Shown one piece after another: positions 3,084-52,300 of a stretch of 64,000 bases of DNA. Position numbers and translations under genes: made by a program. Positions within the stretch are counted from its first letter, which is position 1. Each line of letters opens with the position of its first letter. The stretch is from positions 6,970 through 70,969 of the forward strand of contig JALNZK010000014.1 of the NCBI GenBank assembly GCA_023229365.1, in the 5' to 3' direction. The notes beneath the pieces were generated by a model. That model had not been told where the DNA came from and searched no databases. It worked only from the letters and a program-made list of their open reading frames with translations. The DNA comes from Pseudomonadota bacterium. Lineage in GTDB: Bacteria; Myxococcota_A; Polyangia; JAAYKL01.

Positions 3084-3258
3084 ACACCACGTGTGTTTTG
3101 TCTATTGCATCCCCTATGTTATAGCCTTCCGGTCCTCTTGCACCACATTTGTTGCAATGTGAGTAAAATATGTCTATAATCTGCCCGTTTTTCTTTATGT
3201 ATTCAGATTTTATAACCATAGAGCACCCACAGTATTTACAATCGCTTGGTTTAGACAT
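3064..3258 (-). CDS. Zn-ribbon protein
   Basis: CKYCGC...CNKCG pairs. Confidence 0.45.
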   Translation of the reverse strand: MSKPSDCKYCGCSMVIKSEYIKKNGQIIDIFYSHCNKCGARGPEGYNIGDAIDKTHVVYDANNI

Positions 3259-4917: not shown

Positions 4918-5156
4918 TTAAACCAACCCAAATCAATATCTGAGTTTCTTTCTATAGTTTTTCTGGCTTCACATCCATAATATATTTTAAGCATACATTG
5001 ATCGCATATAGGGAGTCTGATTGATGCTGTGTCTTTGTTTAAAAAGTCAACTAATACTCCATTTATTTTCCCCCCGTAATGATCTGTCCCCACTGTTTCC
5101 CCGCAAATGCCACATGTTATTGTTTCTATCATGTTACCACAATGTCTGTTGTCCAT
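4914..5156 (-). CDS. small Zn-binding protein
   Basis: CGICGE...CDQC. Confidence 0.4.
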   Translation of the reverse strand: MDNRHCGNMIETITCGICGETVGTDHYGGKINGVLVDFLNKDTASIRLPICDQCMLKIYYGCEARKTIERNSDIDLGWFK

Positions 5157-7407
5157 TTACTATATAATCCCATGTGTATCCCAATGCTTCCATATATGAT
5201 TCCATTTTATTTTTTACCAGCTTTTCTGCGTGTGTTGTCCAATCAACCTCACTTTGAATTATTGAGGTATCGAAATCTCCATCTATACAAATCTCTCTGG
5301 GCCACGAGTCACGTTTAAGGAGATAAACAAGACGTGGCTTTACAGAAGGATCAAATATGTGTTGGTATTGAACCTTTGCTACTTCTCTCCCACGATACCA
5401 CGGATCGTCATGTTCAGTATGTATTCCCTTAGGTATAGAGACATCGTATACTGATAACTTTCCGGATTTTATGTCCTTCCAGCGTTGTCTTATGAGAGCC
5501 AGTGCTTTTGGTAGATCATCTTCAATGAATAGTATGTTGAAAAATTCTGTTTGGAGATCTTTTACCGCTTTTGCCTGATCTGATCTTTTGATTTCGACTC
5601 CAACATAACTCATCTTTTTACAGAACCCGTAATCCTGATGCCACAACAACAATCCCACATATTTCTTTTTAGCTGCTTCATTACCTTTTTTTCTCATCTT
5701 GAAGAACAGTGAGTCATGTATTTTTTCGAGCTTTAACGTAAAATCTACAATGGCATTTGTGGCTATGGAGTATGTTTTAAGATCACCATTTAATATATCT
5801 TGAACTTTTAAACCCTCTTCAAGCGTATTTACAGGATTAAACGCTGCTGAGTCCGTGTCGCAATATATTACGTGATATCCAAGCGATTCTATTTTATCCC
5901 GTACTATTTTTGAGATTTCTCTGCCATAGCGAGTGACTGACGCAGCTGTTGCTTCGTTGTATAAACGGAAGCTTTTGGCTCCAAGAACTCCATAGAAGCT
6001 GTTTGCTAGATACTTTAGGACTTGTTCCTGATATTTTAGATTTATATCCTGGCTTGTTTTGTTTATGGTTCTGAGTCTGTCACGCTCTGCTACGATGTGT
6101 TTCAGGATTTTTGGAACTAATTTATCTACATCCGGGGAGATGTCATATGCCATCATAATAGTTGGATATAGGGATTTTAAGTCTACCCAGCCTACGTTTT
6201 TGTGCAGGCCAAACGGCGGGAGAATTACTGTTGCGCCTTCAAATGTACTGTCTGAATTATTTGGAAGTCGTCTTGGCATCGGTTTGATGCCAGATTGCAT
6301 GAGATATGATTCTATGATTTTGCTGTTGTATATGGTGTCTTCAAGTTTGCAGCCTGTAAAATGACGAACTGAATCAAAAAACCGAAACATCTGTGTCTTT
6401 TCTTCAATGATCATCAGGCTGGTGATATCATTTTCACAGTACTGAAGTAGGGTATCCCAGTCATGAGTAGCATACAGGTGTTTTATTTGGGCACCATAGT
6501 CTTTATATGGGAATCCGTATTCGGCCGACACTGTTTTGAGTCCGTTGTCTTCACGTTCCGACTCAGATGATTTTAGTTTTTTAAATCCGTCTAACATGTC
6601 AAAACATTGACGACCCGGAGTTCTTACGATGTATTTTCCGTTTGGCATTAAGTCGCATCGTGCGTCATTTAGCCTGCATAAAGCAGTTGTTCTCATGCCT
6701 ATGACGTTTGCCCTGCGTACGAGATATGGCAAATCAAATTGAAGACAATACCATCCGGTGTAAACATCGGGATCAATCTTTTTGATTAGTTGATAAAAAA
6801 TTTCAAACAGTTCTTTTTCCGACTTTGCAACAATATGATTGGATTTTATTCTGTGATCTATTCCATTTGTGATTATGAATTTCTTTCCGGTGTAACTGTC
6901 GCCAAATTGAATGGTTGCGACCGGATATTTTACAGTTGATGGATTTGGCATGTCCCCGGGATCATTGTCGATTTCGATATCGAAAAACAGGATTCTTGGA
7001 GGAATGTAACCGTCGTACTGCACCGATGATACTGCGCTGTTGCTCTCGATTTTATATGCTTTTTTTAGCTTTTTGTCTGCAATAAATCTCTTTTCAAACA
7101 GAATGTCGCTCTCATCTGTGAAACTAAACTGATCTCGTACTTCTGAGACCCGTCCAGGGAGGTCTGTAAATACCTTGACGACGTTTCTGCCAAAACAATC
7201 GGTTGCGGATTCTCCTCGTCTACATCCATCCAGTTGAGTAATTCTACCTGCTTCATCATATGGAACATAAAAATATGGTTCGAAGTCTTTTATCTTTGTT
7301 ACGGTTGGTTCTCTTGTGGTAGTGTCTCTTCCAAAAACATGCAGGATTGGCTTCCGATTTTTAAAATCTATTTGATATGCTACATCCTGAACAATCGAAA
7401 TAGACAT
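5134..7407 (-). CDS. polB: family B DNA polymerase with 3'-5' proofreading exonuclease
   Basis: ExoI FFDIEID, ExoII YCLQFDLPYL, ExoIII YCENDITSL, pol motif A DLKSLYPTI, motif B KILANSFYGVLG, motif C YCDTDS, and KKKYVG. Confidence 0.95.
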   Translation of the reverse strand: MSISIVQDVAYQIDFKNRKPILHVFGRDTTTREPTVTKIKDFEPYFYVPYDEAGRITQLDGCRRGESATDCFGRNVVKVFTDLPGRVSEVRDQFSFTDESDILFEKRFIADKKLKKAYKIESNSAVSSVQYDGYIPPRILFFDIEIDNDPGDMPNPSTVKYPVATIQFGDSYTGKKFIITNGIDHRIKSNHIVAKSEKELFEIFYQLIKKIDPDVYTGWYCLQFDLPYLVRRANVIGMRTTALCRLNDARCDLMPNGKYIVRTPGRQCFDMLDGFKKLKSSESEREDNGLKTVSAEYGFPYKDYGAQIKHLYATHDWDTLLQYCENDITSLMIIEEKTQMFRFFDSVRHFTGCKLEDTIYNSKIIESYLMQSGIKPMPRRLPNNSDSTFEGATVILPPFGLHKNVGWVDLKSLYPTIMMAYDISPDVDKLVPKILKHIVAERDRLRTINKTSQDINLKYQEQVLKYLANSFYGVLGAKSFRLYNEATAASVTRYGREISKIVRDKIESLGYHVIYCDTDSAAFNPVNTLEEGLKVQDILNGDLKTYSIATNAIVDFTLKLEKIHDSLFFKMRKKGNEAAKKKYVGLLLWHQDYGFCKKMSYVGVEIKRSDQAKAVKDLQTEFFNILFIEDDLPKALALIRQRWKDIKSGKLSVYDVSIPKGIHTEHDDPWYRGREVAKVQYQHIFDPSVKPRLVYLLKRDSWPREICIDGDFDTSIIQSEVDWTTHAEKLVKNKMESYMEALGYTWDYIVNGQQTLW

Positions 7408-16919: not shown

Positions 16920-17159
16920 TTATACGTTGAATATTGCAATGTCATCTGCAATATCTGCTGATTTCTTTAGTTCTGCTCTTACTAGGGTTCTTGAGATGTT
17001 TTCAAGTTTGTTTATTTTCTGCTGAAGTTCTGTAATAGTTAGTTCCGTTTCTTTTATTCTGTCTTTGAGATATGACAGTTCATTCTTAAGATTTTCAATT
17101 TCTGGATCTGGTTTTATTTCAGATATATAAGATGTTAATTGTGGTAACTTTTTGCTCAT
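16920..17159 (-). CDS. coiled-coil protein
   Basis: Heptad-rich LKNELSYLKDRIKETELTITELQQKINKLEN. Confidence 0.4.
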   Translation of the reverse strand: MSKKLPQLTSYISEIKPDPEIENLKNELSYLKDRIKETELTITELQQKINKLENISRTLVRAELKKSADIADDIAIFNV

Positions 17160-18050
17160 TGTGGTTCCTCGGTTAGAATTCTGTTTATTATCTTATTTAT
17201 AGTATTGGTTTCGTTAAGATATGTCGATTGTAGGATTTGAACCTACTTCTGTGGCTTGAGACCACCGTCTTTACCAATCTAATAAAATACAAATGATAGA
17301 TCTATATTTCCCACGGGCATGATTTTATTAGACCAGACCAAATCGACAATGGGAATTGTTAACATTCTTTGAAATGGCACCAGTGAGATTCGCACTCACG
17401 TAGCCCTACGGCGGCAGATTTTGAGTTTGTTGTTCTCTGGTAACAGGCTGACCCGTCGTGGGTCGATTTAAGCTGACTTTACAGACACCCTCATATGAAG
17501 CAATTAGTCGCTACACGCTGCTGGTTCTTCATAGTTTCTGATACCAGAGATAACCAGAATCGGGGATCGAACCCGAACGGCGCTACATGTGCCAACCCAC
17601 TTCCGGTTTTTGTTATAACTCATCCTGATGATCGGATGTAGAGGGTTTGAACCTCCATTGATCTCATATCAAACATCCGATAGGCTGATTGTTTTTATAG
17701 AGGTATCAACCTATGAATTTAACCTCTTTTTGATTCAAACGTCTTTAAATCTCATCCATTTCTGGATAACCGAATAGTGGAATTTAACCACAATTCAATC
17801 AGACTTATGGAGGTCTTACCCCTGATTTGACCCAGGGATAAGATTATTGTTATTTGCGACAGGAAGTTGAGTAAGTTTCCTGTATGAGTTATATTTGCGA
17901 AGGGTATCAGTCTGATGAGGATAAAATGTTTGTACTAAGTAGGTGCATTCGATGGCTTGTTTCCGTGTCTTGTGGTCCTCCTGTAGTTGTTTGGCCTCAC
18001 CAAGATGTGATTATTGGATCACCGGCCAAAAAAGTTTGAGTTAATAAGGT
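17160..18050. other. non-coding tract rich in tRNA-like fragments and hairpins
   Basis: No ORF of 60 aa or more on either strand. GC is higher than the surroundings. T-arm-like GTAGGATTTGAACCTAC (17230-17246), T-arm plus acceptor strand ACCAGAA-TCGGGGATCGAACCCGA (17553-17576), and a hairpin GACCCGTCGTGGGTC (17452-17466). Confidence 0.5.
17632..17680 (-). ncRNA. tRNA-like mini-element: 7-bp acceptor stem (CGGATGT/ACATCCG), T-arm GGAGGTTCAAACCCTCT and a D-like hairpin, but no anticodon arm
   Basis: Complementarity read directly. Not a canonical tRNA. Confidence 0.3.
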
Positions 18051-18340
18051 TAATAAGCTCTGCTTATTATGTAATTCGACTGAGCCACAACTTCTGATGT
18101 GTTTGTTGTCAGGTTGTTATAGATGGTCAGGGTTGCAGCAAGAGATGCCTGTTGTCCTGTAACATAAAGTACTGATTGGTTTGTGATGAACTCACCATAG
18201 TAAAGTGGTGTCGCCCCACCTGCAATAACCAGGGACTTTGATGTTACGTTTATGGTCTGATTGGTATCTGCCATTGCGATACTAGATAGCATCAGTAATG
18301 TTGCTATCAGAAGAACTATGTAAAGCGCTTTTGTCTCCAT
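18050..18340 (-). CDS. secreted protein with signal peptide (probable start METKALYIVLLIATLLMLSSIAMA)
   Basis: Hydrophobic signal, then a Thr/Asn-rich mature part. Confidence 0.45.
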   Translation of the reverse strand: METKALYIVLLIATLLMLSSIAMADTNQTINVTSKSLVIAGGATPLYYGEFITNQSVLYVTGQQASLAATLTIYNNLTTNTSEVVAQSNYIISRAY

Positions 18341-22487: not shown

Positions 22488-23454
22488 ATATCATTATATG
22501 ACAATTTATCATGATGTAGCGGGCATCCTTGTCGTTCTAGCATTTCGACAAGAATCTGATTTAGGTTGTTTGATATGGTGGATGATATCTTGTGGTCCTT
22601 TAGCAGTTCTATGGCCGTTGCCAACTTCAATATAAGTGTTATGTTGTTCATTGTTTTTCCTGTATTTTAACAGTAGATAATGGAAAAATGGGCTTGGGTT
22701 ACTCCCAGGTTAACTATTGGTTTGACCCAATTTGTTAACAATAATAGAATGGTTGTAGAATTGTTCTACAGGGTTGCAGCATTCTGTTTTATAGAGTGCT
22801 GTTTTGTTCTTGATTAATGCCCGGATTAATGTCACACTAATCAGCTTTACCTACCCAGTTACAGCCGCATATAATATGCTGTTAATGCTGTTGCCTGCAT
22901 CATTCCTGGACAGATGTTATTCTGTCGTCATTTGGCAGGGCCGGGTGTGGTTGCCTTGCCTCACGGAACTCATCGGTATAATTACATTTGATGATTTGAC
23001 TATTAAGTGTTTCGGTTTAATATGCAGAAAAAGTAGGTGTTTTGTGGATTTGGTGGAGATATGAGGTGTTGTGTTAATGTTGTTTGATTAACTGCACAGA
23101 CGGTGGGGAGTTAAATTGTAGTTTGTAATTGCAGGTGAGGTGTCCTGGATAACAACAGGGGCGATTTCTGATTTTTTCTGCGCAGATAAAGGCGTTGTGG
23201 AATGGAATGCAGGAAAAACAATGGGGGATCATTGGGGATATAATTGGGTGATATTACATGTTATGTTATTCATTGGATGGTTCGTTGTTTGCATTTTTTA
23301 TTTAGATATGGTCTTGTAATGTTTGCATAGAAGGGCTGCAAATTCCCAGGCGCTTGGATCTGGAGATGAGGTGCCGTTGTCTGATAACATGGCAAATGGA
23401 CATCCTGAGTTGATTTTGGTGCAGATATGTCCAGTGTGTTGATAGTTGTGGTGT

Positions 23455-34101: not shown

Positions 34102-35646
34102 TTGACAAAATCCAAAAAAGAGTTTAATGAGTTTAAGATAAAGCCCGGGGAGACTTTAGACGGGAAAGATCTGATCCGGTTTAAGTTGGATTTGATTAAG
34201 GGGAAATCAGATCCGGTTTGGGCGGTCCAAAATATTTTGGGATTTGGAGATCTGTTCCCCTGGCAGGAAGAATACCTGAGATTGTTTTACCGGAATATTT
34301 ATGATGCCAGTTTAATGCCGATAAGAGATGCATATCTATCAGCGGGCCAGCGTAGTGGAAAAACTATGTGGGCTGCAATGATTGGGTCATATGACTTTTT
34401 TAACGTGGTGACTATTCCAGAACCACAAAAGTTCTTCGGGGTTAAAAATTCACAGAAGCTTTTTGCCACCTGCATGAGTACCAGCGGGAAGCTTGCGGAG
34501 GATGGAATTTATGCGCACATGCTAAATGCCATTGAAGCAAGCGAATGGATGAATCAGTGGTTTGACATAAGATCTGTGACCTCTCCTATACCCCAAATCA
34601 GTGTTGATGATAAACAAGTGTATGCCCAGGTATTAGGTTCCTGGATGAATACAGCAGTTGGCAGGACCAACTTCTGCGTATTGCTGGACGAAATAGATTA
34701 TTTTGAGGAATCTACTTCTAAACGGTCTGGAATGGAGGTATATTCCAGGATGACAAAATCCAGGGACACCTTAAGAGAATGGGGGCATCTGGTTGCAATT
34801 TCGTCTCCAAAGTCTATATCCGGTCCAATTTTGTCATTGGTAAGAGTAGCACAAAAACGTATTGAGGAATTTGGCATAAATGGAACCGACACAATTGGAT
34901 TTAATAAGCCCGTATGGGAACTAAATCCAGATCCGTTCTTTTCATTCCCGGAATTATGTAAGCGATATGCCCATGATATGATTGCGATGTGGAGAGACTT
35001 TGGATGCAAACCCGAAATGGCAGGTGGCATGCAGTTTCCTGAAGGCATATTCATGGATGAGACCCTGACTAACATATTAAAGGAAAAGGTCCGTCCGAAG
35101 TTTCAATACCCCCATGTCATGTACATAGATCCGGCTGCAAGATCAGATAAATTTGGGATATCCGTTGGCTGTAGGGTGCCATTTAAAGGAATGGTGGTAG
35201 ACGGCACAACATATTTTAAGAAGAAAACGGGCGACCCGTTTATCATGCCGTCTGATGTCTGGGACTTTATAAATGAAGCAATCCCAAGATGTAATGTCCG
35301 ATACTTTTGCTTTGATACCTGGATGTTCACTGAAATCCTGGAGCGAGTCTGGAAAAAGCATGGAATTAAGCCAGAACAGCATTTCGTGACTAAATCCGAT
35401 TATGATACCTGGAGGTCCTATCAAAGCCCTAACGCACCACACCCGATGCGATTGTGCTACGATAAAGAACTAAAGGACGAAGCCGATCAGCTCATAGTTA
35501 AGGAAGGCAAACGCGGACATGTGGTAGATCATGCCTGGAACCAGTATAAAGATCAGTCGGATACTGTGGCAGGCGTCTGCTGGTTCCTAACGAATTTTGA
35601 GGTCGAATCAACTGTAGTGCCGTATATCGGGCTTCAAATAATTTAA
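34102..35646 (+). CDS. terL: terminase large subunit (ATPase plus nuclease)
   Basis: Walker A SAGQRSGKT, Walker B VLLDEIDYFEE, and C-terminal nuclease-like YIDPAARSDKFGISVG. The in-frame stop at 34096 forces a TTG (or other non-ATG) start at 34102. Confidence 0.8.
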   Translation: MTKSKKEFNEFKIKPGETLDGKDLIRFKLDLIKGKSDPVWAVQNILGFGDLFPWQEEYLRLFYRNIYDASLMPIRDAYLSAGQRSGKTMWAAMIGSYDFFNVVTIPEPQKFFGVKNSQKLFATCMSTSGKLAEDGIYAHMLNAIEASEWMNQWFDIRSVTSPIPQISVDDKQVYAQVLGSWMNTAVGRTNFCVLLDEIDYFEESTSKRSGMEVYSRMTKSRDTLREWGHLVAISSPKSISGPILSLVRVAQKRIEEFGINGTDTIGFNKPVWELNPDPFFSFPELCKRYAHDMIAMWRDFGCKPEMAGGMQFPEGIFMDETLTNILKEKVRPKFQYPHVMYIDPAARSDKFGISVGCRVPFKGMVVDGTTYFKKKTGDPFIMPSDVWDFINEAIPRCNVRYFCFDTWMFTEILERVWKKHGIKPEQHFVTKSDYDTWRSYQSPNAPHPMRLCYDKELKDEADQLIVKEGKRGHVVDHAWNQYKDQSDTVAGVCWFLTNFEVESTVVPYIGLQII

Positions 35647-41484: not shown

Positions 41485-42510
41485 ATGACAGATAGATTGG
41501 TTGCAATTGCAATAAATTCTACTTCTGATTATGGAGTAACCACCATCGGAACTGATATCGCCGGAACTTATTATAAGTTCAGGGGTAGTGCTGATACTGA
41601 TGGGGTGAACAGGACTCCTATATCAGAAGAGAACATGGATACTATGGCACCGGGTGAAATAGACGGTGGTGGATATGCTGTTACCGGTAATATTGATGGA
41701 ACACTTAGGACTGATCCTGGGACTCTTAATCTGATTAGTTGTTTCATGGGGGTTCAAGCTAGTGGAACAACCGCCGGTACTTATTATATGACGAATATCC
41801 CGCTTACCACATGCACGTTGCTTGTGTATGATGAGCAGGCAAATGATAATGCCGGGGTTGCCACATATTATACCGGTGTCGGGATGACGTCCATGGAAAT
41901 AAGCTGTAAGGTAGAAGATTACGCCAAGCTTAAGTTTGCATGGATTGGAAGACGGGCTATAACAGTTCATGGGGCATTATCGGCTGCACCAACGGAACCA
42001 ACCTGGACAAGTTTTCCGATGTCAGTATATTATAATGCAGTGTTGACATTTGGAGGAACTGTCTTACAGACCAAAGGAATTACTGTTAAGGCTGAGAGAA
42101 AATATGCTCAGGATTACAGGTTCTTGGGGTCACAGTTTTTGCAGGGCTTGTATATTAACGGTATGAGCAACCTTTCAGGAACTATGGATATTGGAGCTGG
42201 TGAATGGGATCTCGTAAGTCAGATCATTAATGGGTCCTCAATTGGCGGTGCTCTCGATTCAGGTCATACGGAGTTTGATGGTAGTCTGGCAAACACGATG
42301 GCCTCTGGAGAATTGAAGTTGAAGTTCTATAGGCCGGCTGGTAGCGGTGCGACAAATGGACTGCTTTTGACTGTTACGATAGCTAAATGTGTTGTTACTG
42401 ATTTTAACCGGAGTGTCCAGAACCGGAATATGTGGGAAAAGACCGTGAATTGGAAAGCTGCACTACCTACAAGTGCTGATTTCAGTATTACTGTGGCAGC
42501 AGTAACATAA
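41485..42510 (+). CDS. major tail (tube) protein
   Basis: 341 aa, Gly/Thr-rich, directly before the chaperone pair and the TMP. Confidence 0.5.
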   Translation: MTDRLVAIAINSTSDYGVTTIGTDIAGTYYKFRGSADTDGVNRTPISEENMDTMAPGEIDGGGYAVTGNIDGTLRTDPGTLNLISCFMGVQASGTTAGTYYMTNIPLTTCTLLVYDEQANDNAGVATYYTGVGMTSMEISCKVEDYAKLKFAWIGRRAITVHGALSAAPTEPTWTSFPMSVYYNAVLTFGGTVLQTKGITVKAERKYAQDYRFLGSQFLQGLYINGMSNLSGTMDIGAGEWDLVSQIINGSSIGGALDSGHTEFDGSLANTMASGELKLKFYRPAGSGATNGLLLTVTIAKCVVTDFNRSVQNRNMWEKTVNWKAALPTSADFSITVAAVT

Positions 42511-43302: not shown

Positions 43303-46300
43303 ATGGTGGATCCTAAAAAAAATATCAATGATAATGTAAGAGTTAAGATCTTGCTTGACGCCGCAAAGAAAGGCGATGAGAATCTTGAGCACATTAGAAC
43401 GCGATATAAGGATGCCATAAAGGAGTATGGGGCCGATGAAGACATCATACTTGTTAATCCTAAGCTGGTGAGTGATCGCAAAGAGCTTAATGACATGATG
43501 CAACATGTCATGCTGGATAAAACTTTTGCTGTGGATACCGAGGTAAATCCTAGGGCCGGAAAACCCGGGACTATTCAAATTGCATCTAGATCAGGTGTAC
43601 ATACTATTGCGGTTAATGCATTTAGAGAAAACGAAGCGGATATGACATATCTTAGAAATAAGATAGGGTCGTTGTTAAACCGGGATGACGTGCATTCATA
43701 TTACCATAATAGAATGTTTGATATGGACTTTCTCACCAGGGATGGGTTTAATCTGGCATTGACAAATTCAGGGGGGGAAGTTACAGCACATGATACAGTT
43801 GCATTGGCATCCAGACTTGGGAAGGCAAACTTGCTTGCTAATCCAGAAATGGGAAATTCTCTGGCATCATTTGTACTGAGATCTTTGGGAAAATATCTGC
43901 CTAAGAAGTTGTCTGGGTCTGGATTTGGATTTAACTATAATGTTGAGACATCCAAAACCAAAGATTTTGATAAGTGGTTTCTTAGGTATGGTGCTGGAGA
44001 TGCACTAGCACTGTATGAAGTGGTATCTAAGTATTATGGAGAGCACAATGATCTTAAGAACCTGAAGAATATTGGAGCATCCAAGGATCAGATTGATTTT
44101 ATAAATAAGATTGATGAGATAGAGCATGCAAAGAGATCAATGTTTAGGCCACCGCCTAGTGTTCAGGATTTCATGGAAGGACGGAATATTATAGCAACCA
44201 GGGTTAAAAAGGGAAATGATGGGAAGTTATATGTTGAAAGTTATTTGTCACCGTCTGATGAATCCCAAAATGCAGTGATGAATTACCTAAGCGACAATAA
44301 TATTTTAGATATTAAAAAAAAGCACGAAACAGGAATATTGGAAAAGGCAGCAGCAGTAGGAGTAAAACTAAAAAAAGGAGAAATTGCAGAGGAAGTAAAT
44401 CTAAAAGCAGAAAGAGAAATAGCAAGTTATCTGCATACAAACCACGGAATAGACATTTATAAAGCAGTTGCAGATGCATTATCCGGAACTGCAAAGACCG
44501 ATGTAAAATCCGGGATTAATCCAATTGCAAGGATGTATGCAAAGGGTGTAGCCGGAAGACTTGGGATGTTTAGATCCAACCGGGTGTATGTATCTGATGC
44601 ATATCGAAACAAACCTGGGCAGGGCGGATCATATGCTAAATATGCCAGTGCATACAGCAAGGACAACAAGATTGGAATTGGATATATTCCGGAAATAAGA
44701 AGCGGGGATTTTTCAATTGTAAAGGCATTCAGACAGATGTATGAAGCATCTCCCGAATACCTGATGAAATCTGTGGGGCACTTTGTTAAAGGGGATATAA
44801 ACAAGGGAAATGTAGAATCTGCAACATCTGACATATTTAATAGGGTAAAGAGTCTGCCTACCGATATAAACGAGGTAAAGAATTATTTTGGTGCATTGGG
44901 AATTTCACCTGATGTTATTGATGCAAACCCGGAGATGTGGATTAGGGATTATCATAGACATGGCCTTGTGGGAACATGGCTTGGACTTAGTAATGTGGCA
45001 AAAGGATTGACTGGAAAGAAAAGTATAGAACGAAATGTGGTTGGTGCAATTAAACAGGTTGGGTTTGATCCTACAACCGGAGATCCTATTTATGCAAGGA
45101 AGTTACAGGAATCGAAGTCTGAAATATCGGAGTCCGGATTAAACTCGTTGCTTAATGGAGTATATGAATCGTTTGCCGGGATAAAAATAGCAAAACATAG
45201 TGTTCCAGGATTTACTCCCGGAAAGTCTGCTGCTGCATTTGGATCGTTGCTTGGTAGTGGAAGAGCTGTTGAAATTATAACAAAGATGGGATTACCGGAA
45301 AGTGTGGCTGCCATACCAGGAAAGTTTAGATTCAGACAGCAATTGATGTCATCTGCTGTTAATTATGGTGCGGCATATGAGAACATGGACGAGCGGATGC
45401 AATCCGTAAATGCAATCAACACACCCGAAATGAATGAGTTATATGGGGAAACAGAGCTGCTTAACAAGATGCCTATACGATCCAGGTTTAAAGAAGGAGA
45501 TGTTGATGAATCACATAGAGAACGGTTGAGATCATTGGGATTTGAACCTGAAAAGATTGAAGAACTGGTTGCAAATGGCGGAGAAATATTAAGAGAGGCA
45601 CTGACATCCCCGGTATTGTATGGAAAAGGAAACGAATGGTGGAAACAGTCCAGAATTATTGTTACAGATGATGTAAAGCAGAAGTTTACTGACTTGTGGG
45701 AAAATATTGAGAATTATTCGCCTGAAGTTCAGAATAAGATACGATCTGCTCTTGCTATAGGAACAAAAGGGCCGTTTAGAGATGCAAACGGACTGGTGCA
45801 GGTTGGAGATCTTGATACCAGGATGGTGGGACATAATAAGAATTATGAGTTATCCACAGGGTTCTATCAGGGAACTGTAGGTCAGGAAATAACATCTATG
45901 CTGACTGATAAGCAGTTTAGACATGAGGCATTTATTGAAAATATACCAAAGATGATTCCAGAAATTTATGCAAGCGGCGATAAGGGAATTACACCCGGTG
46001 GAAGATCGCAATATATAAAAGACTCCTATGATTTTTTTGCTCAGATAGGACTGCTTAAGAGCATTCCGGATAAAAAAGTGGGAATCAAAGCAGCAAAAGG
46101 CATCAAAAACACCATATTAACTGAAATGAGTTATAGGAAGGCATATGGGAAAAATGTACTTAGTGATGCTGAAGTTCTGAAGATGTCTCGTTTGTTTAAT
46201 TTAGTGATGTCAAAAAGAGTTGCCAGAGACGAAACTATAATGAGGGCAGATCTAGACAAAAGTCTTGATTATATAGGGAATATTAAGAACGAGGTTGGAT

Positions 46301-49300
46301 ATAACCCCAATGTATTGCATGGATCTTATAGAAATTATAATGAAGAAACAGGAATGAGTACCATTGTACCATATCAGACATTATCTACACTCCCGACGAT
46401 GAGTGAAAAGGAAGCCAGGAAACTGGAAGGAAGTTATATAAACAGAGTTAAGGAACTGTCTGAAGTAATAAGGCCGAAAGAATTGTTGCAAGTAGAAAAG
46501 TTTATTTCTGGAATAGAAAAGGGATATGCCCCAAATGCAACTGAGTCTGTTAATGCAGCATCAATATATGACACGGTGAAGAAGCTGGGATTGAATGAAG
46601 ACGATGCATATTCGTTGGTAAATAATGCCACAACTGAGGCTTATGATATAGGACAGGCGTTTTCTCCGGAATCAAAAATTCCTGCTACCTTGGCAGTCAG
46701 CAGAACGTTATTTCCACCATTAAAAAAGGCAATTGCCTCTGTTATTCCAGATGTTGCACCGGTCATTTCAGATACAGGAGTTGGAAGATCTCATTCTCCG
46801 CTACTGAACGCAATATTTGATATATCGTCTGAGACTGGAGGACGAACTCCATTAATGTCTCACCCCATTGGTATAACCGATCCGGATGTTTTAATGTCTA
46901 TGCTGGAGTCTGGTGCAATAACGGATAAAGAATATGCAAAGGCTGTTGTGTTGTCTGCGAAACCAATTACAGATCAGAAAGGAACTAGATGGGAAAAACA
47001 TATTCCGAGGGCATTTGCAGATATTTCTAAAGTTGATTTCTCCAGTGGATTTATACGACCGCCTAATGTAGGAGATGAATATATTCAGACACGTGGATCT
47101 GGTCCATCTCGTTTATACTACAGTACATTCCGGGGAATGATGGGAGAAACCTTGTCTGTAATGGCTGAGAATGCAGCACGTAAGAAACAAGATTTGAGAA
47201 GGCTCGAGAGCGAACGGGTTTTAGATAAGCTTGCTGGATCTCATTCCATTCAGGTTGATTACTTGAAAGGACACAAGGTTGCTACCGGTGCAAATGCTGT
47301 GATGGAAGAAGGAAAGGTTGGAAATCTTGTTAAGACATATGAGACATATAACAAGGTTTCTGATGCTATAGGAGAGAGACACAGCGATATAATAAAGCCA
47401 GGATATGTTCCTAAGAAAACAATATCAAGAAATCGCATACTTGGGGAATATTCTCCAGAAACAGCAAATGTTAGATATAATAGAGACATTGGACAGATAA
47501 TTGGAAGCGTATCTGATTATGCTGGAATGGCTAAAGATGTTGGAGGATTTAAAGATAGCAAGGAGGCATTAAAGAAGGCTCCTGGAATCATATCAAAGTT
47601 TTTAAACATATGGGGTCCAAGGAAACCAGACACTTGGAAAAGCAGTGATGCCAGATTGTTTGCTCCTGGATATTATCCAGAAAATGATGTGTCTGATTTG
47701 GTTTCCATAGATTTTTGGATGAACAAAGAGTTGGAGCGGGTATGGAGTGGAAAGACTCCATTTAGTCTGATGCCGAAGGGAGAGAACGAAGATATAAAAG
47801 GGTCTGATATATTTGGACTGGACTTTACCAGGGAAACCACAACCGAGAGTTCAAAGGACTTTAAGAGAATAAGCAGAGATGTAATGGAGAAATCAATTCT
47901 CCAGTCCATTAAGGAATCTGATAACCCGGTTGAACTTATAAATCAAATGCATAGATCTATTGAAGGATTCAATCAATGGAAGAAAGAAGGGGTTGAGGGA
48001 ACTTATCCATATATTCCAGATTACTTGGCATTGTCTAAATCACCAGGTATGAGTTCTGGATTGGGAACTTCGCTATTTGACTGGCTTACAAAAGGCAATA
48101 CAAAGGAGTTATCTGCTGCATTTTCTGAGAATGAGAAAGGATATGGTACGTTGTCCAGTATGCTTGAGGAGGTTGCGGAGATACAAGAAAGCGGGATGTT
48201 AAATGGAAAAAGGATAGGGAAAGACGCATCCGATTATGATGTGGTATCTCACGTAATAAATAAATACAGGACTGGAGAAACCGGAGAAATAAGTCTTGAA
48301 TATCTTGATGCGGTTAACTTGGTTTCTGGATATAGACCATTAAGACCTGAATATGGAATACAACATGTTAATCCATATTATAAGGGAATACCAAGGAAGT
48401 TGTCTGAATATAATCCACGCGATTATGGACTTGGGATGAAAAGCGGGAGATCATCTGTGCTTACTGATCTGTACTCAGATGTCATTGATTACAGTAAGGG
48501 TAGAAGTATTGGATTTAGACTGCCTAAATTTGGAAAAGGAACTCCAAATATAAATGGAATTACATTATCTGGTAAGGCATTTGGATTATCGGTGGTAGGC
48601 GATGGCGGACCTGAAATATCAATCTCAGATGATGGGACCATTAGAACCCACAATACGGAAGAAGTGGTTAATTTTAGATCTCCTACTACTGTAATACCAA
48701 AGAATAGACTTCCACACTTTGCTTTTGGAACCCCAGACTTCAACAGAAATGACATAATACGGTCTATTGCGGAATCTATTGAAAATAGTTTTGAAGAATA
48801 TAATGCTCTTGGATCAGATTTATTATCAACAAAGGGAGTCACAAGGACCACCACACCGTCTGAAATCCAGTCGATAAAAAGTGTGGTGGCGGAACATATG
48901 AATTCCGGATTGGCTAAATCCGGGAAGCATCCTGAAAGGGCTGGGTTGTTTAGGACGGAAGGAAGTGGAATAATCAGTGGTATTGGAAGATTTATGGACT
49001 TTGGTAATACTGATTATACGCTTAGTGGTCCTGGTAATGTAAGAAAAGATATTGGGCGGCATGATATCATGGGACAAGATATATCTGGTAGAATCCAGAG
49101 AATGTCGGATGTCACAAATATCACAGATAATAGATTTATACGAAATAAAAACCGGGGGATTGCAGATGTATATGAAGATGCCACCATTCCTGGAATTCAA
49201 AAAGTAGTAACATCATTGCCTCAGCCTGGTGGAGTCGCACAATCCGGAGCAAGATTGTCTGCAACAGAAATTAATAGTCTTAAAGATATGCTGGGGGATT

Positions 49301-52300
49301 TAAATGCGTCGATGAGAGATCTTGGTAGCGATACTGATTATGGTGGATTCATTAAGAGTCTTGAAACATCAATTGGGGCAAACAGGGGTATTGATGTAAC
49401 AAAAGGTGTGGCAGAACAGTTTAAGCTACTTAGTGATCAGCTTAGGATTATTGTTCCGGAATTGAAGTCGTTTTCTGATGTTGCAAAGATAGAGAATATT
49501 GCAAAGGCAAGAAAGGTATCTCCTGAATATCAGGAAGAAATCATGAAAAAGGGGTACTTTAAGGAAGGCCCTATAAGCAGCATCAGATACATGATGGCAA
49601 AGAGGAGAGATCCCGGATTGACTCCGGAAGAATGGAATGCAGATAGGTTTGAAGCATCATTTTCAGAAAGCAGAGATCAGAGATTAGCTAGGTGGTTAAA
49701 GAAGAGGGCTTTGAAGGGGACCGAAGAAACTGAGACATTTGCATTCCAAGCCAATTATGCATTGGAGTCTCCAGCAGCTAAGTCGGAAATGACAAGGGTG
49801 CAGTCAGAGTTCTCTGCATTTGTATCTGAATTGTCTAAGATTGACAAAAATATTAAAATAAATACTCAGACGGGGACAAAATTCTCACCGGGCGAAAAGT
49901 CAAAACAAGTTGAGAGCGTCTTTGGGGAACAACTTGGGATGAATGTAGAGGTGAGTAAAGAAGCTCTGAGATTGAAGTTTGGCAAAGATTATAGGAAGAT
50001 ATTACAGGGTATGTTTGGGCCGTCTTTAATTGATCAGCCAGGATATATTTCAAATGCAAACCTGGATATTGTGGAAGGCAGGAGAACCACAAGACCTACA
50101 GAAGAATCATCTGGATATTTATCTGCATCTTCCACTCTTCAGGGATATGGCAGAAAAATGACGGCATTGAGCATGGGTGCAATGGGTACCTACTTTTCAA
50201 TAACTGGTATCTATAGTGTGATATCTCAAGGCGTTCGTATGGTAACCGATTCACTGAAGGATCTTAGTTCTCAGATGAAATCAATTGCCATAATGGATAA
50301 CTTCAGCAATGGGCTACTTAGATCTAAGGATATAATGGCTACGATGGGAATAACCCAGCAGGATTTCATTAATGGGTGGAAAGGCATAACATCTATCCAG
50401 GCATCGTTCCAGGTATTTTTGGGATCTATTGCTGCTAAGATGATGCAGGTAGGAGAAGACGGAACTTCAGCGTTCAAAACCATTGCTGATACACTGATGA
50501 AGGCATTTACAGATAAAAGAAGCATAGATGAATTGGTGAGTTCTGTTAAGACACTGGTTGTGGCGGGTGCAGAATTGCTACCGATGTTTATTGGGTTTGC
50601 TAAAACTCTTGCTAATCTGGTTGCTGGAATTGCAAAAAGTCCGTTTGCTCCACTTATTACTGGATTTACGCTTATTGCGTTTGTAATGCAACCGGTGCTT
50701 ACACTGATTGCTGTTACACTGGAAGGATTTGCATCATTGCTTACCCTTATGGCATTCATGGGTCCGGCAGCATCAACCGGAGCACTTGGAATGACACAGT
50801 TTGCAGCTGGTACCACAAGTGCAGCTGGTGGTGTAATGGTTCTTAATGGGGCATTGGGAACTACACTTGCAATGTTATCAACTGTAGTTGTGGTTGTAGG
50901 AGCTGCTGTTGCTGCTTGGCAGTTACTAGGAATGGCTATAAATTTTGCATCAAATAAAGAGGTTGTTCCTACCCCGGTTGGATTAATTGGGGGTGCACTT
51001 GGATTCAATAAGGGTGGATTGGTGGAGTGTTTTGCAGAGGGAGGAGAAAAAGGAACCGACATCGTTCCCTCAATGCTTACACCCGGGGAGTTTGTAGTTA
51101 GGAGAGATTCTGCTAAGAAGTTTGGATATGACAGGCTTGACAAAATTAATAAAATGGCAGATGGAGGTGTTGTAGGCGGACTGATGCCATCATCCTCTCC
51201 TGTTATGGATTCAGATAACCGGATGAATATAAACAATAAGTTTGGGTTGTTGACAAATGTGAGTGAGGCAGGAGCCAATGCAAATAAAAATACCGCAAAG
51301 ACGTTATCTGATGCAAGTGGAGGGAAATATCTTAATGTTAAGTTGTATGGAGAAGAAGGGCAGATCGGCGGTAAAGGCGATGTAGAAACTGAAGGTGGAT
51401 ATCTAGGAAATCTAATGGATACTCTAGGAAATGCAGCAGATGAATTTGCGAAGGGGCTATCTGATACATTTACCCCAAGTGGACTCAAGAATGTAGTAAC
51501 AACTGGAGCAGCTGGAGCAACGTTGTCTACTCCATTTAATGAACTTACTAAAAAAGTAAAGGAATGGTGGGATAAAATAGAATGGCCTGATGTCGGAAAA
51601 TGGATTAAAGAAAGATTTAAGTTTTTGGATGATACAGATCTTGGAGAAAAATTTAGGGAATTTAAGGAAAGGTTAATTGAGTTGACTACCGGAAAGGAGA
51701 GAACCGGTAGAACTGAGAATGTAGACATCGATAGGAATGAAAAGATAAAAGGAAGGAAGACACCTGGGGAAGAAAGTCTCGAAAGTAAAACTAATAAAAG
51801 GGTTGTAGACTGGTTTAGAGGGGATAAAGGATTAGAAGGCTGGGAAAAGGTAGATACAGGAACCGAAAAACAACCTAGCAGACCAAAGATGACCTGGTCA
51901 TATGAGAATGAATATGGGAATGTAGAGGCAGAAAAACCAATTTATGAACCAGGAAGAAATGCATTACCAAATCAAATATGGGAGGTAACTCCAGAAGGAG
52001 GTATAGGAAAAGGAGTTGAAACACCAGAGAGCGGGTTTAAAACCGCAAAGCCACCTGTTGGAGTTTCAACTACCCAAGAGATTATTGGTGGTGCTAAAGG
52101 AGGTGGTATTCTTGGTGGTATATTAGCTGCTGTGGATGAGATACTTGTAAAGGGAAAATCTCCGGTAGAGGCAGCACCTACGGTTGGAGTGAGTGCAGCA
52201 GCAGGAGCGGGACTTGGAGCTGCAACAGCTGCATTTCCTATTTTGGGTCTTCCAGTAGCTATGCTTTCTCATGAGTGGATGGCAAACTTCGGCGCAAATG

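What the first reader, a model, noticed from the sequence alone, without database searches (positions are those of the whole stretch)
17160..18050. 900-bp non-coding tract packed with tRNA-like T-arm/acceptor fragments
Neither strand has an ORF here. The tract contains several minus-strand pieces that look like tRNA 3' portions: GGTTCAAATCC and GGGTTCGATCCCCGA T-arms with adjacent acceptor strands, and at 17632-17680 a perfect 7-bp acceptor stem with T-arm and D-like hairpin but no anticodon arm. I could not fold any of them into a complete cloverleaf. The options are intron-containing or split tRNA genes, a stack of att-site remnants from tRNA-targeted integration, or structured ncRNAs. No integrase is nearby.
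Basis: seen in the sequence. Interest (0 to 1): 0.55.

Follow-up and report, generated by a model that had tools for sequence, protein, structure and literature searches.

The report
Phage tRNA cluster of non-decoding tRNA mimics
The 900-base gap is what remains of a virus's tRNA gene cluster: one truncated leucine tRNA plus several tRNA-shaped small RNAs that cannot read codons, at least one of which is conserved in unrelated phages, much like the unexplained "species 1" RNA of phage T4.

Summary
Window 17160-18050 has no credible ORF. Its minus strand, the strand of both flanking genes, carries three T-arm plus 7-bp-acceptor units, against 0.35 expected in a whole shuffled window. ARAGORN and Rfam call no tRNA at their thresholds.

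A mosaic relative, L041, explains the layout. Its homologous tract holds tRNA-Glu, tRNA-Leu(CAA) and tRNA-like units.

- In the window, a 387-nt deletion removed an ORF and the 5' third of tRNA-Leu. What is left at 17430-17375 is a true tRNA fragment.
- Element 1 (17348-17221) is a full cloverleaf with a 59-nt hairpin in the D loop and a 5-nt "anticodon" loop. It recurs in L041 and in an unrelated 139-kb phage tRNA cluster (L018), with compensatory changes in two stems.
- Element 2 (17607-17552) lacks an anticodon arm in both viruses, yet its acceptor and T stems differ by five double changes.
- Element 3 (17681-31) is a 49-51-nt mini-tRNA.

I found no bulge-helix-bulge motif, no integrase and no genome match for element 1's 3' end, and the stop-codon usage is standard. 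Best reading: non-decoding tRNA mimics in a reshaped phage tRNA cluster. This is a new variant of a known kind (T4 rnaC). Their function is inferred, not shown.

The parts
17221..17348 (-). Element 1: tRNA-like RNA. Acceptor 8 bp (17348-41 / 17229-22), U8 G9, D stem GUCU/AGAC (17338-35 / 17270-67), 5-bp stem GUGGU/GCCAC (17265-61 / 17255-51) with 5-nt loop CUCAA, 3-nt variable region, T arm GUAGG-UUCAAAU-CCUAC (17246-30).
   Evidence: The MFE fold is a cloverleaf, z -3.0. ARAGORN calls tRNA(UCA) after the D-loop insert is removed. Rfam tRNA scores 21.7 bits. Homologues in L041 (3813-3941) and L018 (6443-6541) carry compensatory changes.
17276..17334 (-). 59-nt hairpin inserted in the D loop of element 1: a 13-bp stem (11 Watson-Crick pairs plus 2 G-U) around a 33-nt interior. 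The D loop is 64 nt in total.
   Evidence: Inverted repeat I4, 100% complementary; helix list. L018 has a 34-nt D loop of different sequence at the same place, so this region is variable.
17375..17430 (-). Remnant of tRNA-Leu(CAA): degenerate 5' strand of the anticodon stem, loop CUCAAAA, variable arm, T arm GUGAG-UGCGAAU-CUCAC (17399-83), 3' acceptor UGGUGCC, discriminator A.
   Evidence: Aligns to positions 26-83 of the intact tRNA-Leu(CAA) of L041 (3729-3811; 53.1 bits) with 1 substitution downstream of the anticodon. The window lacks the 5' 25 nt.
17430..17432 (-). Deletion junction. Relative to L041, 387 nt (L041 3367-3753: a 103-aa ORF plus the 5' part of tRNA-Leu) are missing, with a 3-nt overlap of the two aligned blocks.
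   Evidence: BLAST blocks L041 3226-3366 = window 17574-17430 and L041 3754-3941 = window 17432-17221; alignment.
17430..17552 (-). Conserved hairpin domain closed by the 9-bp helix UCUCUGGUA/UACCAGAGA, with three internal hairpins.
   Evidence: Differs from L041 3249-3366 by 1 substitution and a 4-nt indel, although the two viruses share almost no protein genes. Helices.
17552..17607 (-). Element 2: tRNA-like unit without an anticodon arm. Acceptor ACCGGAA/UUCUGGU, 24-nt interior (possible 3-bp D arm GUG-GGUUGG-CAC), T arm UCGGG-UUCGAUC-CCCGA.
   Evidence: The L041 counterpart at 3188-3248 scores 34.7 bits on Rfam tRNA, with a D arm and zero-length anticodon arm. Acceptor pairs 5, 6, 7 and T-stem pairs 49:65 and 50:64 differ on both sides and still pair. 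Folded alone it is not stable (z -0.6).
17631..17681 (-). Element 3: mini-tRNA of 49-51 nt. Acceptor CGGAUGU/ACAUCCG extended to 9 bp, hairpin UUGAU-AUGAG-AUCAA, T arm GGAGG-UUCAAAC-CCUCU, discriminator A.
   Evidence: MFE fold, z -2.85. Rfam tRNA 19.3 bits, with D and anticodon arms skipped.. No homologue found.
17680..17716 (-). 10-bp helix AUAGGUUGAU/AUCAGCCUAU immediately 5' of element 3. It overlaps a stem-less T-loop-like motif, GGUUAAAUUCAUA, at 17724-17712.
   Evidence: z -5.0. The motif AGAGGTTAAATTCATA resembles L006 4383-4398, but weakly (E 0.25).
17769..17799 (-). Minihelix-like hairpin AUUGAAU-UGUGG-[UUAAAUU]-CCACU-AUUCGGU. It has 7+5 layers, like an acceptor stem stacked on a T arm.
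   Evidence: (z -3.3).
17814..17843 (-). 12-bp hairpin UCUUAUCCCUGG-[GUCAAA]-UCAGGGGUAAGA. The same loop motif, GGGUCAAAYC, recurs in other noncoding tracts of this virus family.
   Evidence: z -4.5. The motif is also at window 22728-22719 and at L008 4207 and 4722.
17844..18049 (-). 5' part of the tract: ordinary hairpins (for example 17883-17859) and a U6 run after the upstream gene. No tRNA likeness.

Best explanation
The tract is a remodelled virus tRNA gene cluster, transcribed with the flanking genes on the minus strand. It no longer encodes any decoding tRNA.

What remains is (a) a 5'-truncated tRNA-Leu(CAA) and (b) a set of tRNA mimics. The mimics keep the parts that tRNA-processing enzymes recognise: a 7-bp acceptor stem stacked on a canonical T arm, plus the D stem in element 1. 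They have replaced or lost the anticodon arm.

Inferred mechanism: host RNase P, the 3' tRNA endonuclease/exonucleases and the CCA-adding enzyme excise them as stable small RNAs. Because they cannot read codons, they act as tRNA look-alikes that bind a tRNA-recognising factor (decoy or regulator). Their excision also cuts the long transcript.

Shown: the structures, their non-random clustering, homology with a real tRNA cluster, conservation and compensatory change of elements 1 and 2, and the truncation of tRNA-Leu.

Inferred: transcription, processing, stability and the trans-acting role.
For: - Three acceptor plus T-arm units on one strand in 0.9 kb, against 0.35 expected per whole shuffled window.
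- Folding is strand-specific (z -3.7 against -1.0).
- The L041 tract holds tRNA-Glu(UUC) at 44 bits, tRNA-Leu(CAA) at 53 bits and an anticodon-arm-less tRNA at 34.7 bits, in the same order as the window's units.
- Element 1 against L041: 3 substitutions and 1 indel in 128 nt. Two changes (one substitution, the indel) lie in loops, one turns A-U into G-U, and one removes only the terminal G-U of the insert helix.
- Element 1 against L018, a 139-kb phage where the homologue sits between tRNA-Gly and tRNA-Pro: acceptor U2-A71 becomes C2-G71, and the 5-bp stem changes G-C to C-G, U-A to C-G and U.G to G-C. All 21 stem pairs are standard in both.
- The loop is 5 nt in all three (CUCAA, UUCAA, UUAGC) and is closed by G-C in L018, so it is not an anticodon loop.
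- Element 2 against L041: five pairs changed on both sides, all still paired.
- The hairpin domain is nearly identical between two viruses that share almost no proteins.
- T4 rnaC, a stable RNA of the T4 tRNA cluster with unknown role (PMC3014915), has the same kind of build: terminal stem, long extra hairpins and a canonical T arm.
Against: - There are no expression or processing data.
- All copies of this virus in the collections are 100% identical, so there is no population-level covariation.
- The element 1 family has only three members. The element 2 comparison could reflect replacement of a whole tRNA-like cassette rather than compensatory evolution.
- Elements 3, the minihelix-like hairpin (17799-17769) and the GUCAAA hairpin (17843-17814) have no homologues.
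- Element 2 alone is not thermodynamically stable (z -0.6). An alternative 19-bp long-range helix competes with the Leu-remnant T arm.
- The tract demonstrably contains decay (truncated tRNA-Leu), so some units may be junk.
- No binding partner is identified, and no RNA-related gene lies next to the tract.
Confidence: 0.5

Rival explanations
1. Pure decay. The whole tract is a dying tRNA cluster, and every unit is a pseudogene on its way out with no present function.
For: tRNA-Leu is truncated by a 387-nt deletion. No unit reaches the Rfam gathering score in the window. The relative L041 still has canonical tRNAs in the homologous tract. Element 2 is not stable alone.
Against: 54 base pairs in elements 1 and 3 show no mismatch at all. 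The aberrant build of element 1 (expanded D loop, 5-nt loop, 3-4-nt variable region) is shared with L041 and with the unrelated phage L018 and is kept by compensatory changes. Decay does not produce that. The anticodon-arm-less build of element 2 is also shared with L041. The late-gene half of the window is 94% ORF-covered, so there is little room for 0.9 kb of junk. Structured noncoding tracts recur in relatives.
Confidence: 0.22
2. Cis-acting punctuation only. The tRNA-like units are t-element-type processing signals whose sole role is to make RNase P/Z cut the polycistronic early transcript. The excised pieces have no function.
For: The tract lies between co-oriented genes. The units keep exactly the acceptor/T-arm half that these enzymes need. 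t-elements with non-canonical cloverleaves are known substrates (PMC1920247).
Against: In L018 the element 1 homologue lies between two real tRNAs, which already provide cleavage sites. Its specific 5-bp/5-nt hairpin and D stem are nevertheless conserved by compensatory change. One or two signals would be enough, not five to seven.
Confidence: 0.15
3. Element 1 is a working decoder, a UGA-reading tRNA(UCA), that tolerates or splices out the D-loop insert.
For: ARAGORN folds the insert-less form as tRNA(UCA) with a 7-nt loop. In L041 position 33 is U, giving the canonical-looking loop UUUCAAG.
Against: That fold needs a 4-bp stem under a G.A mismatch and a 3-nt variable region. In L018 the loop is UUAGC closed by G-C, so the 'anticodon' is not conserved. 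A14 is replaced by G. TGA ends 22 of 65 long ORFs, and recoding TGA does not merge ORFs more than recoding the other stops does. No splicing motif is present.
Confidence: 0.07
4. Archaeal-type disrupted tRNA genes (bulge-helix-bulge introns, split or permuted halves), or a stack of att-site remnants from tRNA-targeted integration.
For: PolB is closest, at 25%, to haloarchaeal tailed viruses. Archaeal viral tRNAs can carry introns (bioRxiv 10.64898/2026.09.13.751334). T-arm plus 3'-acceptor pieces are what att sites contain.
Against: The element 1 insert is a continuous helix without 3-nt bulges, and a permissive BHB scan was no better than shuffles (237 against 169). Exhaustive single deletions gave no credible tRNA other than element 1. 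The element 1 family occurs in a phage with a bacterial-type 87-nt tRNA-Tyr. No integrase was found. The units have both acceptor strands. No exact match in 185,579 genomes.
Confidence: 0.04

Closest known systems
Bacteriophage T4 species 1 RNA (rnaC) and species 2 RNA (rnaD), stable RNAs of the T4 tRNA cluster
   Same: They are encoded inside a phage tRNA gene cluster. rnaC has a terminal stem, a canonical T arm (CCGGG-UUCGAAU-CCCGG), long extra hairpins in place of normal D and anticodon arms, and no decoding loop. Their biological role is unknown (PMC3014915).
   Different: There is no sequence similarity beyond the T loop. rnaC is 139 nt with a different arm arrangement. Here there are several distinct units, one of them a 49-51-nt mini form, and no canonical tRNA is left in the cluster.
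YrlA-type bacterial and phage Y RNAs (tRNA-like module bound to Ro60/Rsr)
   Same: They are tRNA mimics with T arm, D arm and acceptor-like stem. They are non-decoding, some are cleaved by RNase P and receive CCA, and some are phage-encoded (PMC4201824). A distant relative (L014) carries a Ro60/TROVE gene next to a noncoding RNA tract.
   Different: YrlA is topologically permuted (closed acceptor, open anticodon stem forming the Ro60 site) and carries a GNCGAA motif. I found no Rfam hit in the tract, no such motif by eye, and no TROVE gene in the window or in 10 kb beyond its start.
t-elements (tRNA-like processing signals of plant mitochondria, also used in haloarchaea)
   Same: They have non-canonical cloverleaves retaining the acceptor/T-arm features and are cut by RNase P and RNase Z (PMC1920247; PMC4946936 listed).
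   Different: t-elements are defined by coincidence with mapped transcript ends, and no transcript data exist here. Conservation of the non-acceptor parts of element 1 suggests more than a cleavage signal.
tRNA-like domain of tmRNA, and truncated or pseudo-tRNAs of phage tRNA clusters
   Same: Acceptor plus T arm without an anticodon arm. In L018 a neighbouring element gives a sub-threshold tmRNA match. The Leu remnant is an ordinary truncated tRNA.
   Different: There is no mRNA-like part, no pseudoknots, no ARAGORN tmRNA call and no Rfam tmRNA hit in the window.

Membership tests
Canonical tRNA (Rfam RF00005 / ARAGORN) | Score at or above the family threshold | tested here: not met
   ARAGORN finds 0 genes and Rfam gathering finds 0. 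The best window scores are 21.7 and 19.3 bits against 29. The L041 counterparts of two units do pass: tRNA-Leu at 53.1 bits and element 2' at 34.7 bits.
Canonical tRNA (Rfam RF00005 / ARAGORN) | Seven-nucleotide anticodon loop with U33 on a 5-bp stem | tested here: not met
   Element 1 has the 5-nt loop CUCAA (or a 7-nt loop with C33 on a 4-bp stem). Element 3 has the 5-nt loop AUGAG. Element 2 has no anticodon arm.
Canonical tRNA (Rfam RF00005 / ARAGORN) | 7-bp acceptor stem contiguous with a 5-bp T stem and a UUCRANY T loop | tested here: met
   Elements 1, 2 and 3.
Archaeal intron-containing, split or permuted tRNA | Bulge-helix-bulge motif (two 3-nt bulges 4 bp apart) at the exon-intron junctions | tested here: not met
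   The element 1 insert is a continuous 13-bp helix next to the D stem. The automated scan was uninformative (237 candidates against 169 in shuffles).
Archaeal intron-containing, split or permuted tRNA | Removing the intervening sequence yields a canonical decoding tRNA | tested here: not met
   All single deletions of 6-300 nt were tested with ARAGORN. Only element 1 gives a consistent call, and it keeps an aberrant anticodon arm. The ARAGORN -i model is poor.
attP / att-site remnants of tRNA-targeted integration | Integrase gene in the element | tested here: not met
   Pfam and PHROGs scans of 30 window ORFs, among them 20 of the 23 of 200 aa or more, plus precomputed Pfam marks on genes called in the 10 kb beyond the window start, give none.
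attP / att-site remnants of tRNA-targeted integration | Fragment identical to part of a host tRNA gene | tested here: not met
   The 24-nt 3' part of element 1 has no exact match in 185,579 species genomes. Only element 1 was tested this way.
YrlA / Y RNA | Match to the Rfam models; adjacent Ro60/TROVE gene; GNCGAA motif in the closing stem | tested here: not met
   The only Rfam matches at E up to 10 in the tract are two sub-threshold tRNA hits, and none is to a Y RNA family. tblastn with the L014 TROVE halves finds nothing in the window or near relatives. The motif is absent by inspection of 17607-17375.
Phage tRNA-cluster stable tRNA-like RNA (T4 rnaC type) | Located in a phage tRNA gene cluster; terminal stem plus canonical T arm; non-decoding body | tested here: met
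   Homologues of element 1 lie next to tRNA-Leu in L041 and between tRNA-Gly and tRNA-Pro in L018. Build compared with T4 rnaC.
Phage tRNA-cluster stable tRNA-like RNA (T4 rnaC type) | Sequence homology to T4 rnaC/rnaD; accumulation as a stable RNA | not testable with these tools
   No similarity beyond the T loop is visible when the sequences are compared by eye. Searches of 50,697 phage records returned only tRNA T arms. Stability needs experiments.
t-element | Ends of the tRNA-like fold coincide with mapped transcript termini | not testable with these tools
   No transcript data are available.

The most novel reading that the evidence does not exclude
Element 1 defines an undescribed, mobile family of non-decoding tRNA mimics: canonical acceptor, D stem and T arm, a hugely expanded D loop, and a 5-bp/5-nt hairpin in place of the anticodon arm. 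The family is exchanged between unrelated phages inside tRNA clusters. Together with the anticodon-arm-less and mini-tRNA units, it works as a decoy or inhibitor for a host factor that recognises the upper half of tRNA, for example a tRNA-targeting defence enzyme or a processing or CCA-adding enzyme. That would give a function to the class of RNAs to which T4 species 1 RNA belongs, whose role is still unknown (PMC3014915).
Probability: 0.25. Interest if true: 0.7.

Novelty: new variant of a known kind. Interest (0 to 1): 0.48.

Why it matters
Phage tRNA clusters are usually read as codon-supply or anti-defence devices made of decoding tRNAs. This cluster has lost every decoder yet keeps tRNA look-alikes. 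One of them is conserved, with compensatory changes, in an unrelated 139-kb phage.

That makes the non-decoding members of phage tRNA clusters a tractable comparative problem. T4 rnaC and rnaD are the known examples, and their role is still unknown. It also gives concrete small RNAs (49-128 nt) to test against RNase P, RNase Z, CCA-adding enzyme and tRNA-targeting defence nucleases.

There is a practical point as well: standard tRNA finders miss all of these units.

Tried and rejected
- **Standard finders.** ARAGORN default, intron, relaxed and mitochondrial modes gave nothing credible, and Rfam at gathering threshold gave nothing.
- **Exhaustive single deletions (6-300 nt) with ARAGORN.** These gave many chimeric, unconvincing calls, and only element 1 was consistent.
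- **Own BHB scan.** It was too permissive to be useful, and the general hairpin scan was too noisy.
- **Stop-codon recoding.** Rejected.
- **Relatives through neighbouring proteins in IMG/VR.** None found.
- **GTDB genomes.** None found.
- **Copies of the same virus from other samples.** All are 100% identical, so they give no variation.
- **PolB relatives at 32-61% identity (L003-L015).**
  - One syntenic noncoding tract (L006 4286-4947) has no sequence similarity.
  - These loci contain no tRNA-like units other than one real tRNA-Ile.
- **BLAST of the tract and of elements against 50,697 phage records.** Only T-arm matches.
- **Repeats of tract pieces elsewhere in the window.** None.
- **Y RNA reading of the 17601-17382 domain.** Its topology is suggestive, but there is no model hit, no motif and no Ro60 gene.
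- **Host assignment.** TerL and MCP gave no host. A search for the sample accessions in the literature found nothing.
- **MAFFT alignment of the three element 1 homologues.** It misplaced the 5' part of L018, so pairs were verified by script instead.
Full report
**Context.** The window is a tailed double-stranded DNA virus.
- It encodes a family B DNA polymerase (5134-7407, minus strand), a Sak4-like ATPase, a terminase large subunit (34102-35646), a tail tube protein (41485-42510) and a 3330-aa ORF.
- The genes of the left half run on the minus strand. The tract 17160-18050 lies between a 79-aa coiled-coil ORF (16920-17159) and a small signal-peptide protein (18050-18340), both on the minus strand.
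- The genetic code is standard. TGA ends 22 of 65 long ORFs, and recoding any stop does not merge genes.
- The host is unknown. PolB is only 25% identical to haloarchaeal tailed viruses. TerL is about 21% identical to bacterial jumbo phages. The capsid protein matches only itself among 5.8 billion proteins.

**The observation.** It is correct.
- There is no minus-strand ORF of 40 aa or more.
- The minus strand folds far better than shuffles (z -3.7) and the plus strand does not (z -1.0).
- A strict scan looked for a 5/5 T stem, a TTCRA loop and an immediately following 7-nt strand fully complementary to an upstream strand. It finds four sites in the whole window. Three are in this tract, all on the minus strand. 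Shuffled windows average 0.35.
- Standard finders call nothing. Rfam's tRNA model gives sub-threshold hits at 17222-17290 (21.7 bits) and 17632-17679 (19.3 bits).

**Anatomy, 5' to 3' on the minus strand.**
- 18049-17844: ordinary hairpins.
- 17843-17814: a 12-bp hairpin with loop GUCAAA.
- 17799-17769: a 7+5-layer hairpin with loop UUAAAUU, shaped like an acceptor/T-arm minihelix. Hairpins of 12 layers or more with T-loop-like loops occur twice in the window, both in this tract, against 0.17 per shuffled window.
- 17681-17631 (element 3): a 9-bp terminal helix, a 5-bp/5-nt hairpin and a canonical T arm, in 49-51 nt.
- 17607-17552 (element 2): a 7-bp acceptor, a 24-nt interior and a T arm.
- 17552-17430: a hairpin domain closed by a 9-bp helix.
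- 17430-17375: a T arm (loop UGCGAAU) with a 3' acceptor strand but no 5' partner.
- 17348-17221 (element 1): a complete cloverleaf whose D loop holds a 59-nt hairpin with a 13-bp stem and whose "anticodon" hairpin has a 5-nt loop. RNAfold returns this cloverleaf as the MFE (z -3.0). ARAGORN calls a 73-nt tRNA(UCA) once most of the insert (17332-17278) is removed.

**Comparative evidence: what gave nothing.**
- Copies of the same virus from four samples are 100% identical.
- PolB relatives at 32-61% identity have structured noncoding tracts. One of them (L006 4286-4947, z -3.3) is syntenic, lying after the homologue of the signal-peptide gene. It shows no sequence similarity and has no tRNA-like units.

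**Comparative evidence: L041.** Pattern scans of IMG/VR based on element 1 gave the decisive loci. L041 is a 43-kb contig that shares almost no proteins with the window but carries a homologous tract. In order, it holds:
- tRNA-Glu(UUC), 44 bits;
- an uncalled tRNA-like unit at 2921-2990;
- a 61-nt unit at 3188-3248 that passes the Rfam tRNA threshold (34.7 bits), with acceptor, D arm and T arm but a zero-length anticodon arm;
- the hairpin domain, which differs from the window by 1 substitution and a 4-nt indel;
- a 103-aa ORF;
- tRNA-Leu(CAA), 53 bits;
- a near-copy of element 1.

The window equals this layout minus L041 3367-3753. That is one 387-nt deletion, which removed the ORF and the 5' 25 nt of tRNA-Leu. 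So 17430-17375 is a true tRNA-Leu remnant, and its lonely T arm is explained.

**Element 1 is a conserved RNA.**
- Against L041 it differs by three substitutions and one indel. One substitution and the indel lie in the D loop, one substitution lies in the 5-nt loop (C to U), and one turns A-U into G-U in the T stem.
- L018 is a 139-kb phage contig with 16 tRNAs in 10 kb, among them an 87-nt class II tRNA-Tyr typical of Bacteria. It has a homologue between tRNA-Gly and tRNA-Pro that ARAGORN also misses.
- The build is the same: 7-bp acceptor, UG, D stem GUCU/AGAC, an expanded D loop (34 nt against 64 nt, with different sequence) ending in UUGG(U)AA, a G.A mismatch, a 5-bp stem with a 5-nt loop, a 3-4-nt variable region and an identical T arm.
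- One acceptor pair and three pairs of the 5-bp stem are changed on both sides, and every pair remains standard.
- The loop is CUCAA, UUCAA and UUAGC respectively, and in L018 it is closed by G-C. This is therefore not an anticodon loop, and a decoding role is unlikely.

**Element 2.** The window and L041 versions differ in sequence from the 5' acceptor to the 3' acceptor. Three acceptor pairs and two T-stem pairs are changed on both sides, and all remain paired. Both versions lack an anticodon arm. This is either compensatory evolution or replacement by another self-consistent tRNA-like cassette. Either way, the same odd architecture is kept at the same place.

**Interpretation.**
- The tract is a remodelled phage tRNA cluster. 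One part is decay (tRNA-Leu).
- The other parts are tRNA mimics. They keep what RNase P, the 3' processing nucleases, the CCA-adding enzyme and T-loop modifiers recognise, and they have discarded decoding.
- I infer that they are excised like tRNAs and act as non-decoding look-alikes. Cleavage of the long transcript would be a side effect.
- The closest known case is T4 species 1 RNA (rnaC), which I folded for comparison. It has a terminal stem, long extra hairpins and a canonical T arm (z -4.6). Its role is still unknown (PMC3014915).
- Y RNAs of the YrlA type (PMC4201824) and t-elements (PMC1920247) work in comparable ways, but their defining features were not met or cannot be tested here.

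**Rejected readings.**
- Archaeal introns or split genes: there is no bulge-helix-bulge, no canonical product after any single deletion, and a homologue sits in a bacterial-type phage.
- att remnants: both acceptor strands are present, there is no integrase, and there is no genome match.
- Suppressor tRNA with recoding.

**Limits.**
- There are no expression data.
- The element 1 family has three members.
- Elements 3, the minihelix-like hairpin and the GUCAAA hairpin are unique to this virus.
- An alternative long-range helix (17601-17582 with 17404-17382) competes with the Leu-remnant T arm.
- The host domain is unresolved.

Noticed in passing
window 22665-23300 (minus strand): A second ORF-free tract. 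Its 3' 375 nt are strongly structured (z -3.6). It ends with a hairpin carrying the same GGGUCAAACC loop motif as 17833-17824, followed by a U run and a small membrane-protein gene. The noncoding tract L008 4160-4765 (z -4.6) ends the same way.
   Followed up: partly
L014 2028-4857 (identical in L015): A virus with 38% PolB identity carries a Ro60/TROVE gene split by an HNH endonuclease ORF. It is preceded by a 650-nt noncoding tract that holds an above-threshold Rfam DUF3800-X RNA (49 bits, 2268-2340) and four repeats of UACAGUUACUUC...ACUGUA, which may be Y-RNA-like partners.
   Followed up: partly
L012 12041-17619: A virus with 32% PolB identity encodes a Thg1-like protein, an RNA ligase and a TnpB (OrfB_IS605) gene side by side. 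This looks like a possible tRNA-repair module.
   Followed up: no
L041 2921-2990: Another uncalled tRNA-like unit directly after tRNA-Glu: acceptor ACCACGA/UCGUGGU, T arm GCAGG-UUCGAUU-CCUGC, and a 37-nt non-canonical interior (z -2.5).
   Followed up: partly
L018 6550-6707: A 158-nt stretch right after the element 1 homologue gives a sub-threshold tmRNA-model match (20 bits, E 5e-5). This suggests a further acceptor/T-arm RNA with a large interior in the same phage tRNA cluster.
   Followed up: no
L006 2860-2931 and 4286-4947: The relative with 55% PolB identity has one genuine tRNA-Ile(UAU) (67.9 bits). It also has a 660-nt structured noncoding tract in the same position (after the signal-peptide protein gene) as the window's tract. 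The only shared sequence is a 16-nt motif, AGMGGTTMAATTCATA (window 17727-17712).
   Followed up: partly
window 17260-17256 and 17667-17663: The 5-nt loops of element 1 (CUCAA) and element 3 (AUGAG) are complementary over 4 nt (CUCA/UGAG), so a kissing contact is possible. This could easily be chance.
   Followed up: no
P0005 and P0007 (PolB of relatives); L003 17790-21044: Several relatives carry inteins with LAGLIDADG domains in PolB and in ribonucleotide reductase. The window's own PolB is intein-free.
   Followed up: no
window 43303-53295: A single 3330-aa ORF lies in the tail-gene region. It was not examined further.
   Followed up: no
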